Positions 2,677 through 48,310 of a DNA stretch of 64,000 bases are shown in pieces (within the stretch, counting starts at the first letter, position 1; every line of letters starts with the position of its first letter). Below the pieces are notes generated by a model. It did no database searches. It saw only the letters and a program-made list of their open reading frames with translations, and was not told the DNA's origin. The stretch lies in the sequence record PV112478.1; one strand, 5' to 3'. Source of the stretch: Klebsiella phage LPKP23. The position numbers and the translations under genes are program-made.

Positions 2677-2696
2677 GGTGATATAGACTTGAAAAC
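2677..2696 (-). promoter_or_regulatory. conserved promoter-like motif copy 1 (plus-strand GGTGATATAGACTTGAAAAC)
   Basis: Member of a 5-copy motif family. It lies 35 nt upstream of the minus-strand gene start at 2643. Confidence 0.45.
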
Positions 2697-2727
2697 AAAT
2701 CCAAAAGAAAAAAAGAGAACATAGAAC

Positions 2728-2755
2728 CTTCCTCTCTCCCGAAGGAGAGAGGAAG
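2728..2755 (-). terminator. stem-loop terminator (12-bp GA-rich stem, CGAA tetraloop)
   Basis: CTTCCTCTCTCC-cgaa-GGAGAGAGGAAG lies immediately downstream of the minus gene ending at 2763. A T-rich run follows on the minus strand. Confidence 0.55.
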
Positions 2756-2762
2756 CGTCAAA

Positions 2763-3167
2763 CTATAGTTGCTGACCCATGGCCGCCGCTACAATCACTG
2801 CAACGAAGATCGAAACAACACCGGAAAGAATATACCAGACAAACCACAGGCGGGAGTTACCGTTGCGGTTTTGGCGTTTATAGACATAAACCGGGGAGAG
2901 CAGCCACCACCAACCCGATGGGACAAAGGCCCCTTCTTTCTTCAGCATTTCACGGTCGGTGATGAACCAACCCGTAAACAGCATCAGTGAGATCAGCCAG
3001 CCAATGGTTGGTAAGGCGACCTGAATCGCAGTGAAGATCGGCTGTGAGAAAATGATGAAAAGCATGAAGAACGGCGTCATCAGCTGAGGCTTAGTGCCTT
3101 TCTTGAAGAAAGTGTAACCGTTCGCGTTTTGGTATTGGATTTCTGTTTCAATAGTGTTCTGGGACAT
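2763..3167 (-). CDS. small integral membrane protein (about 3 TM segments)
   Basis: Hydrophobic stretches FFMLFIIFSQPIFTAIQVALPTIGWLISLMLFTGWFI and VWYILSGVVSIFVAVIVAAAMG. A terminator hairpin follows immediately downstream. Confidence 0.5.
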   Translation of the reverse strand: MSQNTIETEIQYQNANGYTFFKKGTKPQLMTPFFMLFIIFSQPIFTAIQVALPTIGWLISLMLFTGWFITDREMLKKEGAFVPSGWWWLLSPVYVYKRQNRNGNSRLWFVWYILSGVVSIFVAVIVAAAMGQQL

Positions 3168-3237
3168 TTTATTACTCGCTTAGTTAAAGGTTGTTGTTAA
3201 ATGATTTTACAAGACTTATCTGTCGTATATGCATTGA

Positions 3238-3258
3238 AGTGATATAGATGTTAAATTA
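3238..3258 (-). promoter_or_regulatory. conserved promoter-like motif copy 2 (AGTGATATAGATGTTAAATTA)
   Basis: Identical over 21 nt to copy 5. It lies 72 nt upstream of the gene start at 3167. Confidence 0.5.
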
Positions 3259-3802
3259 TTTCGATATTGAAGGTGGGTTCTGGGATGCCTTTAAAAGCGC
3301 ATTCGTTACTGACGAGCTCACTCAGACCGCCGCCGATATAAACATCTTTAAGTCCGCGTTTGCTGTAAGTACGTTTGCCGATGGGGCTTTCTGCGGAGCA
3401 ATCGTTCCGGAAAAGAAGATAAATTCTTTGCCCATCAAAATCGGTGTAGATTGAATAATCAGTAACGTCTTCTTGTTCGCCAGGTTCAGCAAAACAAAAA
3501 TCAATAACGTTCGCGGAGAGTAGCCAGAAAAACCGAAGGTATTCCCGTAACAGATCGCTATGAATGGCAGAGAACTCGCCGCCTTTGTTAATTTTTTCTA
3601 TCATCTCTTTAACCGGAACTTCAGAAGAGGGCGAACCAACACCGTGAAGATCCCCTAGGATTTCCCACGCTGGATCGTTATCTCGTTGAACAAAAAGAAA
3701 CTCTCCGCTTTTCTCGTCATACATCACCGACGCCAACTCGGATTCGAGAAGTTTTAACCCTGCACGGTAATTCTCAATTAAAGAAGTTTCTGTGTTTTCC
3801 AT
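3251..3802 (-). CDS. hypothetical protein (183 aa)
   Basis: Long ORF. No motif recognised. Confidence 0.5.
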   Translation of the reverse strand: MENTETSLIENYRAGLKLLESELASVMYDEKSGEFLFVQRDNDPAWEILGDLHGVGSPSSEVPVKEMIEKINKGGEFSAIHSDLLREYLRFFWLLSANVIDFCFAEPGEQEDVTDYSIYTDFDGQRIYLLFRNDCSAESPIGKRTYSKRGLKDVYIGGGLSELVSNECAFKGIPEPTFNIEII

Positions 3803-4231
3803 TTAAAATACCTCTATTTGTAAAAAGTTTTGATGGGGGTTGACTTCTAGTTCAAACTGAACATCGTCATCTGAGATGTAGCCCCCAAGATCAATTTTCT
3901 CAAAGAAAAATCGATAGATCGTTGGCCACCCGCAATAAACATCGATATGTTGAGAAAACTTCTCAAAGACCTCGTATAACCTCTCGCCTTCATCAGGCCC
4001 TATTTTCTTAGTTTCATCATCGAAATAAGACGGTTCAATAAATTGATGATAGGCTTGCTCTGAAAACGCCTGATGTAAAATTTTCCCAGCATACTTTGAA
4101 TCTGCGTTTTCAGCGGTAAGAATGACAGCCCAGAAAAGGGCTGTCATGACGTAAATGCGGTCATCAGGATCCTTGATCTTCCGCAGACCCATCGAGAGTC
4201 TCTCCGGAATCCCCAAAATGAACGTTCCCAT
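3803..4231 (-). CDS. hypothetical protein (142 aa)
   Basis: ORF abutting the upstream gene. Confidence 0.45.
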   Translation of the reverse strand: MGTFILGIPERLSMGLRKIKDPDDRIYVMTALFWAVILTAENADSKYAGKILHQAFSEQAYHQFIEPSYFDDETKKIGPDEGERLYEVFEKFSQHIDVYCGWPTIYRFFFEKIDLGGYISDDDVQFELEVNPHQNFLQIEVF

Positions 4232-46610: not shown

Positions 46611-47162
46611 TTACGCTCTGACCTGTTTCAGCCAGGCGTCGTCAAGACCCGCTTCTTTCGCGGTTTTACGATTCACGTACTCAGTCAGGTCTGGATCGTG
46701 ACGGGTCACCAGGAAATGCAGGGCACGGAGACCGGCTAACCAGAAATCGGTTTCGAGGAATTTGTATTCACACGCCGGATGCAGGACAGTGAACTCCCAG
46801 CATTCCGCTTCATCAGATTCCGTTTCCGCCACGTTACGGTATTTGATCTGACCACTGGTTGATTCCAGATAACGGTTAACAGCCTGGATTGACAATGCGT
46901 GACCTTTAGGGACATCGAAGCCCAAACCGATGAACAGTGAATGGGTCAGGGACATCTTGGAGATACGATCAACGTACTCTTCGTGTTTGGCGATGATCTC
47001 TTCTTTGCTCGGCGGGACTTCGCCGTCTTTGATGATTTCCGGGTAAGAGGAATCAACCAGCACGAAGTCTTCGTGTTTGAAATCCTTCAGGACTTCCTGT
47101 TTCATTTCGCTGTCAATAGTTGCGGCAGCAGAGATTGCTTCGTTTACAACGGTGTTTTCCAT
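46611..47162 (-). CDS. hypothetical protein (183 aa)
   Basis: ORF with a terminator downstream. Confidence 0.5.
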   Translation of the reverse strand: MENTVVNEAISAAATIDSEMKQEVLKDFKHEDFVLVDSSYPEIIKDGEVPPSKEEIIAKHEEYVDRISKMSLTHSLFIGLGFDVPKGHALSIQAVNRYLESTSGQIKYRNVAETESDEAECWEFTVLHPACEYKFLETDFWLAGLRALHFLVTRHDPDLTEYVNRKTAKEAGLDDAWLKQVRA

Positions 47163-47192
47163 TTGATAATTAACCTAATTGAAAGAAAAGAA

Positions 47193-47215
47193 AAAGCGGG
47201 GAATTTCCCCGCTTT
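47193..47215 (-). terminator. stem-loop terminator
   Basis: AAAGCGGGG-aattt-CCCCGCTTT, with TTTTTCTTTTCTTTC on the minus strand. Confidence 0.55.
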
Positions 47216-47238
47216 ATTAAACTACCTGGCCGCCGAAA

Positions 47239-47700
47239 TTAATCGGACAGCTCGGAAGTTTTGGATTCGATCATACGGCGAACTGCGACGTGATCTTCGC
47301 GCTCTTTACGGCGATACGCCACGGTCACCGACGGGTCTTTCATGGTGCCGTCAGCCTTTTTACCGGTCGGCGGAGTATAGTTAACCGCAACGCCTGTTTT
47401 ACCCGTCTGGATAACGCCCCAAACGCGTTTGGTGTCGCGATGAGTTTTCAGGTGATCGATGGCTTTAGGCCCGGCGTTATGCAGCAGCGCGGTGGCGAAC
47501 AGGCTTTCGTATTCCTGAACCGCTTCGATCTTGTCTTTGATATCCGCCGGCGCGTTATCCATGAAACAGTCTACGCCTTCTTTCTGCGAGATGGTTCCAT
47601 GTTCTGAGACGAAAATGCTGTCGCCGATTTTAGCGGAAAGGTCCAGTACCTCTTTAGAAATTTCCAGTACGGTTTCTTTCTTTTCTTTTACATCTGACAT
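47239..47700 (-). CDS. hypothetical protein (153 aa)
   Basis: ORF with a terminator downstream. Confidence 0.5.
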   Translation of the reverse strand: MSDVKEKKETVLEISKEVLDLSAKIGDSIFVSEHGTISQKEGVDCFMDNAPADIKDKIEAVQEYESLFATALLHNAGPKAIDHLKTHRDTKRVWGVIQTGKTGVAVNYTPPTGKKADGTMKDPSVTVAYRRKEREDHVAVRRMIESKTSELSD

Positions 47701-47837
47701 TTGTATTTCCTCAATTGAGTGTGTTTCGATGAGATTAATGAGAACTGCAGTTCTACTACTTCACTATCGACCGATGATCAGTTCGGCGCGATGGGAATTT
47801 TATCTTTAGCGCCGAGTATCTTTGAGTTTAACTCAAC

Positions 47838-48236
47838 TTACTCAGCTTCTTTCTGTCCTTGGAGTTTCCACCGTGGGATTGAAGGGTTCGTAGAAGCTTC
47901 GATATAATCTACGAGGGCCGTGTTTACGTAAAAAAGATTACGATAAACATAAACCCAATCAATCGATACGCGTCTGTACTCTTTAGCACCTTTATTAGAA
48001 ATAAGATGCCCTGTTTCGGAGATAATACACGAGATAGCTCGAGTTAATTCAAAATCGTTAATTTTGCTATCAAGTACCCGAACTGACGCTATTACTTCTT
48101 CAAGTAATTTAAGATGCGCGAACTGGCCAAAGCGTCCTTCGGGCAGAATAATAAAGTCAGCTACCCGAAGACGGAGATCAGCTACCTGGTTTATAGCTGT
48201 AATAAAATCATTTTGAACGGAATTTTCTTCAAGCAT
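47838..48236 (-). CDS. hypothetical protein (132 aa)
   Basis: A promoter-like motif lies 55 nt upstream. Confidence 0.5.
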   Translation of the reverse strand: MLEENSVQNDFITAINQVADLRLRVADFIILPEGRFGQFAHLKLLEEVIASVRVLDSKINDFELTRAISCIISETGHLISNKGAKEYRRVSIDWVYVYRNLFYVNTALVDYIEASTNPSIPRWKLQGQKEAE

Positions 48237-48289
48237 GTCTCACTCCTTTTAATGATTGAAAGGTAGATTTCTCTACCTTATTTCAATAG

Positions 48290-48310
48290 AGTGATATAGA
48301 TGTTAAATTA
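48290..48310 (-). promoter_or_regulatory. conserved promoter-like motif copy 5 (AGTGATATAGATGTTAAATTA)
   Basis: It lies 55 nt upstream of the gene start at 48236. Confidence 0.5.

What the first reader, a model, noticed from the sequence alone, without database searches (positions are those of the whole stretch)
2677..48310. Five-copy conserved motif (minus-strand reading TAATTTAACATCTATAT[C/T]AC) 35-145 nt upstream of gene starts: candidate phage early promoter
The sequence AGTGATATAGATGTTAAATTA occurs identically at 3238-3258 and 48290-48310. Close variants are at 2677-2696, 14389-14409 and 22644-22664. All are in intergenic or gene-end positions, in the same orientation relative to downstream minus-strand genes. 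Read in the transcribed orientation, the core CTATAT(C/T)AC closely resembles the TATATTAC-type AT-rich early promoter consensus reported for phiKZ-like phages, which is recognised by virion RNAP. That recollection is from memory and should be verified. This fits the split RNAP found in the same window.
Basis: partly seen in the sequence, partly recalled or inferred. Interest (0 to 1): 0.6.

Follow-up and report, generated by a model that had tools for sequence, protein, structure and literature searches.

The report
Jumbo-phage virion-polymerase early promoters
The five repeated sequences are very probably early promoters read by the RNA polymerase that this giant Klebsiella phage injects with its DNA; this promoter type is already well known from phiKZ-like phages, so the result is useful for annotation but not surprising.

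Summary
The core TCTATATYAC occurs exactly 5 times in the window, all on the minus strand (0.13 expected by chance), 35-143 nt upstream of minus-strand genes.

The window comes from a roughly 300-kb Klebsiella jumbo phage of the Siatvirus/Maaswegvirus group (family Chimalliviridae, nucleus-forming, phiKZ-like).

The 10-mer is the centre of a ~35-nt motif: TSSA-N5-tTTnAnRnM-TATATYAC-yntAKTGAA. A matrix of this motif finds 27 sites in the close relative KpZh_1 and 28 in the ~80%-identical FBKp24. All 55 lie on the main coding strand, and about 90% lie within 150 nt upstream of a gene start.

The motif matches the published early-promoter consensus of 201phi2-1 and OBP/N1M2 position by position. 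The matrix, trained only on the Klebsiella phage, also picks out sites in phiKZ upstream of PHIKZ053, 054, 058.1, 068, 070.1/071 and 076.

In the relatives, the motif precedes the nuclear-shell gene and all four non-virion RNAP core genes. It does not precede the virion RNAP genes, which are the PHIKZ178 and PHIKZ180 orthologues in this window.

No transcript data exist for this clade. This is a new member of a known kind, of modest interest.

The parts
2669..2703 (-). Promoter copy 1: extended motif positions -16..+18, core TCTATATCAC at 2678-2687. Predicted transcription start near 2671. First gene downstream is 2137-2643 (GTG start).
   Evidence: 38.7 bits. Conserved at the orthologous FBKp24 position 194397. 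Lies directly after terminator hairpin 2728-2755.
3230..3264 (-). Promoter copy 2: core 3239-3248, predicted start near 3232. Drives the single small gene 2763-3167, which is followed by terminator 2728-2755. The motif overlaps the stop codon of ORF 3251-3802.
   Evidence: 36.7 bits. Contains one of the two exact 21-mers. The FBKp24 orthologue at 194955 has one core mismatch.
14381..14415 (-). Promoter copy 3: core 14390-14399, predicted start near 14383. Lies inside the 3' end of ORF 14382-14876. First gene downstream is 13923-14351 (SspB-like).
   Evidence: 35.7 bits. FBKp24 orthologue at 205774. The downstream protein hits PHROG 8945 'SspB-like, host takeover'.
22635..22669 (-). Promoter copy 4: core TCTATATTAC at 22644-22653, predicted start near 22637. 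It is followed by a conserved ~120-nt leader and then ORF 22256-22501.
   Evidence: 35.8 bits. FBKp24 orthologue at 214041 and a Centimanus orthologue.
48282..48316 (-). Promoter copy 5: core 48291-48300, predicted start near 48284. First gene downstream is 47838-48236. The leader carries a 5' hairpin at 48260-48279.
   Evidence: 46.1 bits, the best score in the window. Contains the second exact 21-mer. FBKp24 orthologue at 243219. Hairpin z-score -4.1.
54145..58632 (-). Virion RNAP beta-like subunit (1495 aa), orthologue of PHIKZ178. It is part of the enzyme proposed to recognise the motif. No motif copy lies upstream of it.
   Evidence: 33.5% identity over 86% of its length to phiKZ 181832-186139, which is PHIKZ178, annotated 'structural head protein'. 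Its C-terminal part matches bacterial RNAP beta.
58648..60279 (-). Virion RNAP beta'-like N-terminal subunit (543 aa), orthologue of PHIKZ180.
   Evidence: 36% identity, E=1e-55, to the available part of PHIKZ180. Matches the AR9 RNAP beta' chain 7s00_d. Synteny 180-178-177.1-177 as in phiKZ.
2728..2755 (-). Intrinsic terminator (12-bp stem plus T-run). It ends the copy-2 unit immediately upstream of copy 1.
22518..22637 (-). Conserved non-coding leader transcribed from copy 4. It ends in terminator hairpin 22528-22545, before the ORF. Candidate early small RNA or attenuator.
   Evidence: Nearly invariant across window, FBKp24 and Centimanus while the upstream gene end is unalignable. Two compensatory pairs in the terminator stem. 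Terminator called by the scan. No Rfam family.

Best explanation
The five copies are early promoters of a Chimalliviridae (phiKZ-like, nucleus-forming) Klebsiella jumbo phage. They are probably recognised by the multisubunit virion RNA polymerase that is injected with the DNA. Two of its subunits (orthologues of PHIKZ178 and PHIKZ180) are encoded in this same window. The promoter has four blocks about 10 bp apart: T-S-S-A around -30, tTTnA around -20, TATATYAC around -10, and A-K-T-G-A-A, where transcription probably starts at or next to the conserved G. That places the starts on the minus strand near 2671, 3232, 14383, 22637 and 48284. Each copy would start a unit of small early genes. Genome-wide, the same promoter class would switch on the nuclear-shell gene and the non-virion RNAP genes, and that second polymerase then transcribes later genes. 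Shown here: the motif, its statistics, its conservation, its match to characterised promoters, and the identity of the polymerase genes. Inferred: that RNA starts there, that this happens early, and that the virion enzyme is what binds.
For: Enrichment. There are 5 exact cores against 0.13 expected. The matrix finds 27 sites in KpZh_1 at 25-47 bits, nothing between 12 and 25 bits, and 0-1 hits in shuffles. It finds 28 sites in FBKp24.

Orientation and position. All 55 sites are on the major coding strand. In KpZh_1 24 of 27, and in FBKp24 26 of 28, have the predicted start within 150 nt upstream of a same-strand gene start, against 15-16% for random positions (P about 1e-16 and 1e-19). In KpZh_1 22 of 27 cores, and in FBKp24 25 of 28, are fully non-coding in genomes that are 6% non-coding.

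Conservation. All five window copies are kept at orthologous positions in FBKp24. Identity is 80% inside the motif and 57.5% in the flanks.

Architecture. The consensus T-16 S S A-13 ... T-7 T T n A-3 n R-1 n M TATAT Y A C y n t A K T G A A aligns column by column with the 201phi2-1 consensus TTTRARR_BTATATTACDWHDGTG and the OBP/N1M2 consensus TTTYARRYAKATATTATYWWADTG (PMC7058600 Table 2). It also fits the -10/-20/-30 description of phiKZ and 201phi2-1 early promoters (PMC11512511, PMC8244752).

Transfer to other phages. The Klebsiella-phage matrix finds six sites on the coding strand of phiKZ 40-90 kb, upstream of PHIKZ053, 054 (shell), 058.1, 068, 070.1/071 and 076. It also finds a site upstream of the shell gene in Moabite, PhiEaH1 and PCH45.

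Regulon logic. In FBKp24 the motif precedes the shell-protein gene gp083, followed by gp082 (PHIKZ055-like). It also precedes gp069-gp068 (PHIKZ071- and 074-like) and gp371-gp370 (PHIKZ123-like). These assignments have E-values of 1e-61 to 6e-80 to PDB 7OGP chains. No site sits directly upstream of an annotated structural gene or of the virion RNAP genes.

Taxonomy. Siatvirus and Maaswegvirus are in Chimalliviridae.
Against: No transcript 5' ends, timing data or rifampicin-independence data exist for this phage or its genus. Assigning the motif to the virion rather than the non-virion polymerase rests on analogy with phiKZ and AR9 and on regulon logic. The start-site position is inferred from the literature statement that the conserved element is centred near -10, not measured. 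Copy 3 lies inside a coding region. In FBKp24 copy 2 has a core mismatch (TCTATATCCC). The matrix was trained iteratively on the genome it was then used to count, so site counts in KpZh_1 are not independent of the model. The counts in FBKp24, phiKZ and the other phages are independent.
Confidence: 0.87

Rival explanations
1. The motif is a promoter for the phage's second, non-virion RNA polymerase (middle or late class), not for the injected virion enzyme.
For: Both enzymes are encoded in this phage group, and no timing data exist. The conserved T-G at the presumed start resembles the end of the phiKZ late TATG element (PMC7598289). The 201phi2-1 study found some non-virion RNAP genes behind middle or late promoters (PMC11512511).
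Against: Published middle motifs (weak AT-rich/TACT near -22) and late motifs (only TATG at the start, no upstream conservation) do not resemble a 35-nt motif with -10/-20/-30 blocks (PMC7598289, PMC8244752). Only 2 of 27 sites read TATG at positions 13-16. The motif precedes all four non-virion RNAP core genes, which this enzyme could not switch on before it exists. It is absent upstream of annotated structural genes. It matches the AT-rich motif class that the papers call early.
Confidence: 0.06
2. The copies are host sigma-70 promoters, with TATATY serving as the -10 box, used by Klebsiella RNA polymerase. This is how a few of them were annotated in the FBKp24 GenBank record.
For: The core is AT-rich and resembles TATAAT. 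The FBKp24 record annotates sigma-70-style promoters that overlap or abut four motif sites (121333, 304715, 85984, 94641).
Against: The last base of the would-be -10 hexamer is T in only 7 of 27 sites and C in 18. Nothing is conserved where a -35 box would lie, 17 bp upstream. The conserved blocks fall in the 'spacer' and downstream (invariant C9, T15, G16), which sigma-70 does not read. The sigma-70 scan uses the core of none of the five window copies as its -10 box, and its only nearby call, at copy 3, is a chance-level 9/12 match. phiKZ development is reported to be independent of host RNAP (PMC8244752, PMC10914365).
Confidence: 0.02
3. The motif acts after transcription or as a non-promoter DNA site, for example an RNA processing or stability signal inside long minus-strand transcripts, or a binding site for a phage regulator.
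For: All copies lie on the transcribed strand inside a long run of co-oriented genes, so they would appear in read-through RNA. Some are followed by leader hairpins.
Against: In KpZh_1 11 of 27 sites directly follow a strong hairpin plus T-run, where upstream transcripts should already have ended. The motif has no dyad symmetry and no conserved secondary structure. Downstream hairpins are present at only 7 of 27 sites and differ in sequence. The motif matches the AT-rich motif class that transcript mapping in phiKZ assigns to early promoters (PMC8244752).
Confidence: 0.04

Closest known systems
phiKZ early promoters (AT-rich, TATATTAC core; 28-32 sites mapped by primer extension, RNA-seq, dRNA-seq and ONT-cappable-seq)
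   Same: The -10-like TATATYAC core, the T-run about 10 bp upstream, a further element about 20 bp upstream, and T-G near the start are the same. They sit on the main coding strand upstream of small early genes, the shell gene and the non-virion RNAP genes. The Klebsiella-phage matrix scores phiKZ sites at 10.7-24.4 bits.
   Different: The core is mostly TATATCAC here (C at position 7 in 18 of 27 sites) against TATATTAC in phiKZ. The -30 block is T-(C/G)-(C/G)-A here and T-(G/A/T)-A-A in the six phiKZ sites. The host and the genome G+C content (about 45%) differ. There are no experimental data for this clade.
Predicted or mapped early promoters of 201phi2-1, OBP and Klebsiella aerogenes phage N1M2
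   Same: There is column-by-column agreement from the TTT block to the final TG, with the same spacings (against PMC7058600 Table 2). About 30 sites per genome were reported for N1M2.
   Different: OBP and N1M2 read ATATTAT where this clade reads TATATCAC. Upstream of the TTT block 201phi2-1 is AT-rich, whereas this clade has TSSA.
AR9/PBS1 jumbo-phage early promoters (virion RNAP)
   Same: The strategy is the same: an injected multisubunit RNAP reads a phage-specific AT-rich element near -10 (PMC5312081, PMC7598289).
   Different: These are a different phage lineage with uracil-containing DNA. I did not compare sequences here.
Phage N4 virion RNAP promoters
   Same: An injected virion polymerase transcribes the early genes.
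   Different: N4 uses a single-subunit enzyme (PMC4496689). That its promoters are DNA hairpins is from my own knowledge; the paper was not read here. The motif here has no hairpin of its own.

Membership tests
Chimalliviridae virion-RNAP early promoters | The phage encodes a virion-packaged multisubunit RNAP | tested here: met
   Window ORFs 54145-58632 and 58648-60279 are orthologues of PHIKZ178 and PHIKZ180, annotated 'structural head protein' in the phiKZ record. Packaging in this phage itself was not shown.
Chimalliviridae virion-RNAP early promoters | The phage belongs to the nucleus-forming lineage with a shell protein and a second, non-virion RNAP | tested here: met
   The closest relatives are Siatvirus and Maaswegvirus, both in Chimalliviridae. 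A nuclear shell gene is present in the relatives. FBKp24 has orthologues of PHIKZ055, 071, 074 and 123.
Chimalliviridae virion-RNAP early promoters | A conserved AT-rich ~10-nt element (TATATTAC-like) with further conserved blocks about 10 and 20 bp upstream | tested here: met
   Consensus from 27 sites, compared with the consensus strings in PMC7058600 Table 2 and the descriptions in PMC8244752 and PMC11512511.
Chimalliviridae virion-RNAP early promoters | Sequence similarity to experimentally mapped phiKZ early promoters | tested here: met
   The matrix trained on the Klebsiella phage finds six coding-strand sites upstream of PHIKZ053, 054, 058.1, 068, 070.1/071 and 076. Only PHIKZ054 could be checked against a text statement of an early-type promoter (PMC8244752). 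Tables of mapped start sites were not available.
Chimalliviridae virion-RNAP early promoters | Located upstream of, and co-oriented with, early operons, including non-virion RNAP genes; absent before late structural genes | tested here: met
   55 of 55 sites are co-oriented with the downstream genes, and 50 of 55 lie within 150 nt of a start codon. Sites precede the shell gene and the non-virion RNAP genes. None of the 28 FBKp24 sites directly precedes an annotated structural gene.
Chimalliviridae virion-RNAP early promoters | Primary transcripts start about 10 nt downstream of the core within minutes of infection, without new protein synthesis or host RNAP | not testable with these tools
   I found no transcriptome for this clade. 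The FBKp24 genome paper does not mention promoters.
Chimalliviridae virion-RNAP early promoters | Direct recognition by purified virion RNAP | not testable with these tools
   As of the 2020 review no virion RNAP had been purified from any jumbo phage (PMC7598289). The window's subunits match no solved virion RNAP chain in the PDB.
Bacterial sigma-70 promoters | TTGACA-like -35 box, 16-18 bp spacer, TATAAT-like -10 box ending in T | tested here: not met
   There is no conservation at the -35 position, and the final T is present in only 7 of 27 sites. The scan uses the core of none of the five copies as its -10 box; its only nearby call, at copy 3, is a chance-level 9/12 match.
phiKZ-type late promoters (non-virion RNAP) | TATG overlapping the start site with no upstream conservation | tested here: not met
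   Positions 13-16 read A-K-T-G, and only 2 of 27 sites read TATG. Strong conservation extends 30 bp upstream.

The most novel reading that the evidence does not exclude
This clade's virion polymerase may have a shifted promoter specificity: a G+C-containing T-S-S-A block at -30 and C at core position 7, often fused to the 3' arm and T-run of the preceding terminator. In addition, copy 4 may not mainly drive a protein gene. It may instead produce a ~120-nt small RNA, conserved across genera and ended by its own terminator, that acts early in infection.
Probability: 0.25. Interest if true: 0.45.

Novelty: new member of a known kind. Interest (0 to 1): 0.3.

Why it matters
The finding gives a ready-made early-promoter map for Klebsiella jumbo phages that are being considered for therapy: 5 sites in this window and about 27 per genome. 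Public annotation of these phages so far carries only sigma-70-style guesses. The map marks which unknown small genes are likely to be host-takeover genes. It also supplies about 55 further natural promoter variants for working out how the virion RNA polymerase recognises DNA; no virion RNAP chain matched the window's subunits in the PDB copy searched. It does not change the current picture of jumbo-phage transcription.

Tried and rejected
- Searching the 21-mer with up to 3 mismatches finds only the two identical copies, so the family had to be defined by the core and a matrix.
- The bare 8-mer TATATYAC is too short to be informative: 8 hits against 3.5 expected.
- The 'promoter' features in the FBKp24 GenBank record turned out to be sigma-70-style predictions or 8-nt AT-rich strings. 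They are not this motif, although four overlap or abut it.
- A sigma-70 scan around all five copies found nothing that uses the core as a -10 box.
- Rfam found no family for the conserved leader after copy 4.
- A second BLAST hit of that leader in each genome was only the promoter motif at the shell gene, so the leader is not a second copy.
- Leader hairpins are not a general feature of these sites: only 7 of 27 have z below -2.
- The original phiKZ transcription paper (Ceyssens 2014) and the supplementary start-site tables of the phiKZ studies are not held in the library. The start-site offset therefore rests on text statements.
- The phage name 'FBKp24' gave no hits in the paper search. The genome paper was found under 'Kp24'.
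Full report
**Observation.** The 21-mer AGTGATATAGATGTTAAATTA occurs identically at 3238-3258 and 48290-48310, and nowhere else within three mismatches. Read on the minus strand, the three other reported copies share only a 10-nt core with these two. That core, TCTATATYAC, has exactly five hits in 64 kb. All are on the minus strand, at 2678-2687, 3239-3248, 14390-14399, 22644-22653 and 48291-48300, against 0.13 expected. 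The 8-mer TATATYAC alone is not clearly enriched. Each copy lies 35-143 nt upstream of a minus-strand start codon, either in an intergenic gap or across the end of the preceding gene.

**Origin of the window.** The window is 93-99% identical to a group of ~300-kb Klebsiella pneumoniae jumbo phages (vB_kp_MJ359, KpLz-2_45, KpZh_1 and others). It is about 77-82% identical to vB_KpM_FBKp24 and Centimanus. KpLz-2_45 is the type of genus Siatvirus, and FBKp24 and Centimanus are Maaswegvirus. Both genera are now placed in Chimalliviridae, the nucleus-forming phiKZ-like family.

**The full motif.**
- I fetched the whole KpZh_1 genome and built a 44-nt matrix from its eight exact cores, then iterated. 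This converged on 27 sites scoring 25-47 bits, with nothing between 12 and 25 bits and 0-1 hits in shuffled genomes.
- I number positions from the first base of the 10-mer. The consensus is T(-16) S S A(-13), t T T(-7 to -5) n A(-3) n R(-1) n M(1), T A T A T(2-6) Y A C(9), y n t A(13) K T(15) G(16) A A.
- T2-T6, C9 and A-13 are invariant, and T-16, T-6, T-5, T15 and G16 are nearly invariant.
- The conserved blocks are about 10 bp apart.

**Genome-wide behaviour.**
- All 27 KpZh_1 sites and all 28 sites in the separately scanned FBKp24 genome are on the strand that carries about 84% of the genes.
- With the start site placed at G16, 24 of 27 and 26 of 28 sites lie within 150 nt upstream of the next same-strand start codon (medians 65 and 60 nt). 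For random positions the figure is 15-16% (binomial P about 1e-16 and 1e-19).
- In KpZh_1 22 of 27 cores, and in FBKp24 25 of 28, are fully non-coding, although only 6% of either genome is non-coding.
- These gene calls are my own crude greedy ORF calls. For FBKp24 I checked them by eye against the deposited annotation.
- All five window copies are retained at orthologous FBKp24 positions, two with a single core change. In pairwise alignments, identity is 80% within -16..+18 and 57.5% in the flanks.

**Comparison with characterised promoters.**
phiKZ has 28-32 early promoters with an AT-rich consensus, summarised as TATATTAC, and they are attributed to the injected virion RNAP (PMC7058600 Table 2; PMC7598289; PMC8244752; PMC10914365).
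- The longer published strings for 201phi2-1 (TTTRARR_BTATATTACDWHDGTG) and OBP/N1M2 (TTTYARRYAKATATTATYWWADTG) align with the present consensus column by column. They share the TTT block, A at -3, R at -1, the TATAT core, A at 8, four variable bases and then K-T-G.
- phiKZ and 201phi2-1 early promoters are described as conserved at -10, -20 and -30 relative to the start, with the AT-rich element centred near -10 (PMC11512511, PMC7598289). On that basis I place the start at or next to G16.
- As a direct test, I ran the Klebsiella-phage matrix on phiKZ 40-90 kb. It gave six hits of 10.7-24.4 bits, all on the coding strand and all directly upstream of genes: PHIKZ053, 054 (nuclear shell), 058.1, 068, 070.1/071 and 076. 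PHIKZ054 is stated to have an early-type promoter at its primary start site (PMC8244752).
- The matrix also finds a site 78-129 nt upstream of the shell gene in Serratia phages Moabite and PCH45 and in Erwinia phage PhiEaH1.

**Which polymerase.**
- The two RNAP genes in the window are orthologues of PHIKZ178 (33.5% identity over 86% of the length) and PHIKZ180 (36% identity, E=1e-55). They have the same gene order as in phiKZ, where both are annotated as structural head proteins, i.e. virion RNAP subunits. Neither has a motif copy upstream.
- In FBKp24, gp069, gp068, gp082 and gp370 match the four core chains of the solved phiKZ non-virion RNAP (PHIKZ071, 074, 055 and 123; E from 6e-80 to 2e-61). 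All four lie downstream of motif sites: 64499; 77949 (via the shell-protein gene gp083, the best-scoring site in that genome); and 304715.
- The KpZh_1 counterpart of site 77949 precedes a gene annotated as nuclear shell protein in MJ359 and Centimanus.
- This is the pattern expected if the injected enzyme reads the motif and thereby switches on the second polymerase.
- The first genes after the five window copies encode small proteins of unknown function. One is SspB-like and falls in a 'host takeover' category.

**Rival explanations.**
- *Host sigma-70 promoter.* A few copies in the FBKp24 record were annotated this way. The motif has no conserved -35 box and usually lacks the final T of a -10 box. 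Its invariant positions fall outside what sigma-70 reads. The consensus scan uses the core of none of the five copies as a -10 box; its only nearby call, at copy 3, is a chance-level 9/12 match.
- *Non-virion-RNAP (middle or late) promoter.* This does not fit the published middle and late motifs, and it does not fit the motif's position ahead of that enzyme's own genes.
- *RNA-level signal.* In KpZh_1 11 of 27 sites directly follow a strong hairpin plus T-run, where upstream transcripts should already have stopped. The motif also has no conserved secondary structure.

**Limits.** None of this is experimental evidence for this clade. Timing, start sites and the identity of the enzyme are all inferred.

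**Novelty.** A review already states that such a motif can be found by computer in every RNAP-encoding jumbo phage (PMC7598289). The FBKp24 genome paper does not mention promoters, and the deposited annotation does not mark these sites. I therefore rate the finding as a new member of a known kind. The clade-specific details are modest variations: mostly C at core position 7, a T-S-S-A block at -30 where the six phiKZ sites read T-R/T-A-A, and frequent fusion with the preceding terminator.

Noticed in passing
window 22518-22637 (minus strand); FBKp24 L002 23897-24025; Centimanus L018 428-550: The ~120-nt leader after promoter copy 4 is almost invariant across three lineages, while the tail-fibre gene end just upstream cannot be aligned. 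It contains no ATG and folds into three hairpins. It ends in a terminator (22528-22545) before the 81-aa ORF, and the terminator stem shows two compensatory changes. It is a candidate early small RNA or attenuator, like the 5'UTR-derived short RNAs reported in phiKZ and 201phi2-1. It has no Rfam family.
   Followed up: partly
window 2728-2755 plus 2669-2703; KpZh_1 sites 2282, 33860, 58312, 85184, 112429, 133781, 138919, 232906 (L003-L007): Many promoters are fused to the preceding intrinsic terminator. The terminator's T-run serves as the promoter's TTT block, and the 3' arm of the hairpin often carries the T-S-S-A block. In KpZh_1 11 of 27 sites have a strong hairpin (z below -2) ending at the motif.
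   Followed up: partly
KpZh_1 L004:10642, L004:32175, L004:35184, L005:4054 (genome positions 60642, 82175, 85184, 104054); FBKp24 positions 96661, 118320, 139763: A sub-family of promoters has the core TATATATWGC (G at position 8). Most share the upstream string TGCAGTTTTTTTGATG and a similar leader hairpin (AGGAAAG...CTTTCC) followed by AAATAACTAAAC. This may be a duplicated promoter-leader cassette. None of them is in the window.
   Followed up: no
window 48260-48279 (minus strand): There is a stable hairpin (8-bp stem, z = -4.1) four to five nt after the predicted start of the copy-5 transcript. It may be a 5' stabilising stem-loop. The sequence is not conserved in FBKp24.
   Followed up: partly
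window 2763-3167 (minus strand): This is a single-gene unit bracketed by its own promoter (copy 2) and terminator (2728-2755). It encodes a 134-aa protein with long hydrophobic stretches (read directly from the sequence). Its only family match is a weak hit to a PHROG of unknown function. The layout resembles a moron (an independently acquired gene with its own promoter and terminator).
   Followed up: no
window about 20000-45000: The tail-fibre and tail-spike cluster is the mosaic part of the window. Relatives that are 93-99% identical elsewhere cover only 25-43% of it. This fits receptor-binding gene swapping among these Klebsiella phages.
   Followed up: no
GenBank MW394391.1 (FBKp24): promoter features such as 121326-121355 and 304708-304739; 8-nt features at 116957, 126597 and 136417: The promoter features in the deposited annotation are sigma-70-type predictions. 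Two of them reinterpret the phage motif as -35/-10 boxes. Three are bare 8-mers (AATAAATA or TTTAAATA). They are probably misleading for a phage expected to use its own polymerases.
   Followed up: yes
GenBank MN871447-MN871453 (for example L003-L008): Six near-identical genomes are titled 'Serratia phage Kp...'. The one record read in full (MN871452, KpZh_1) is flagged UNVERIFIED_ORG. All list Klebsiella pneumoniae as host and carry no annotation, so the organism names look wrong.
   Followed up: no
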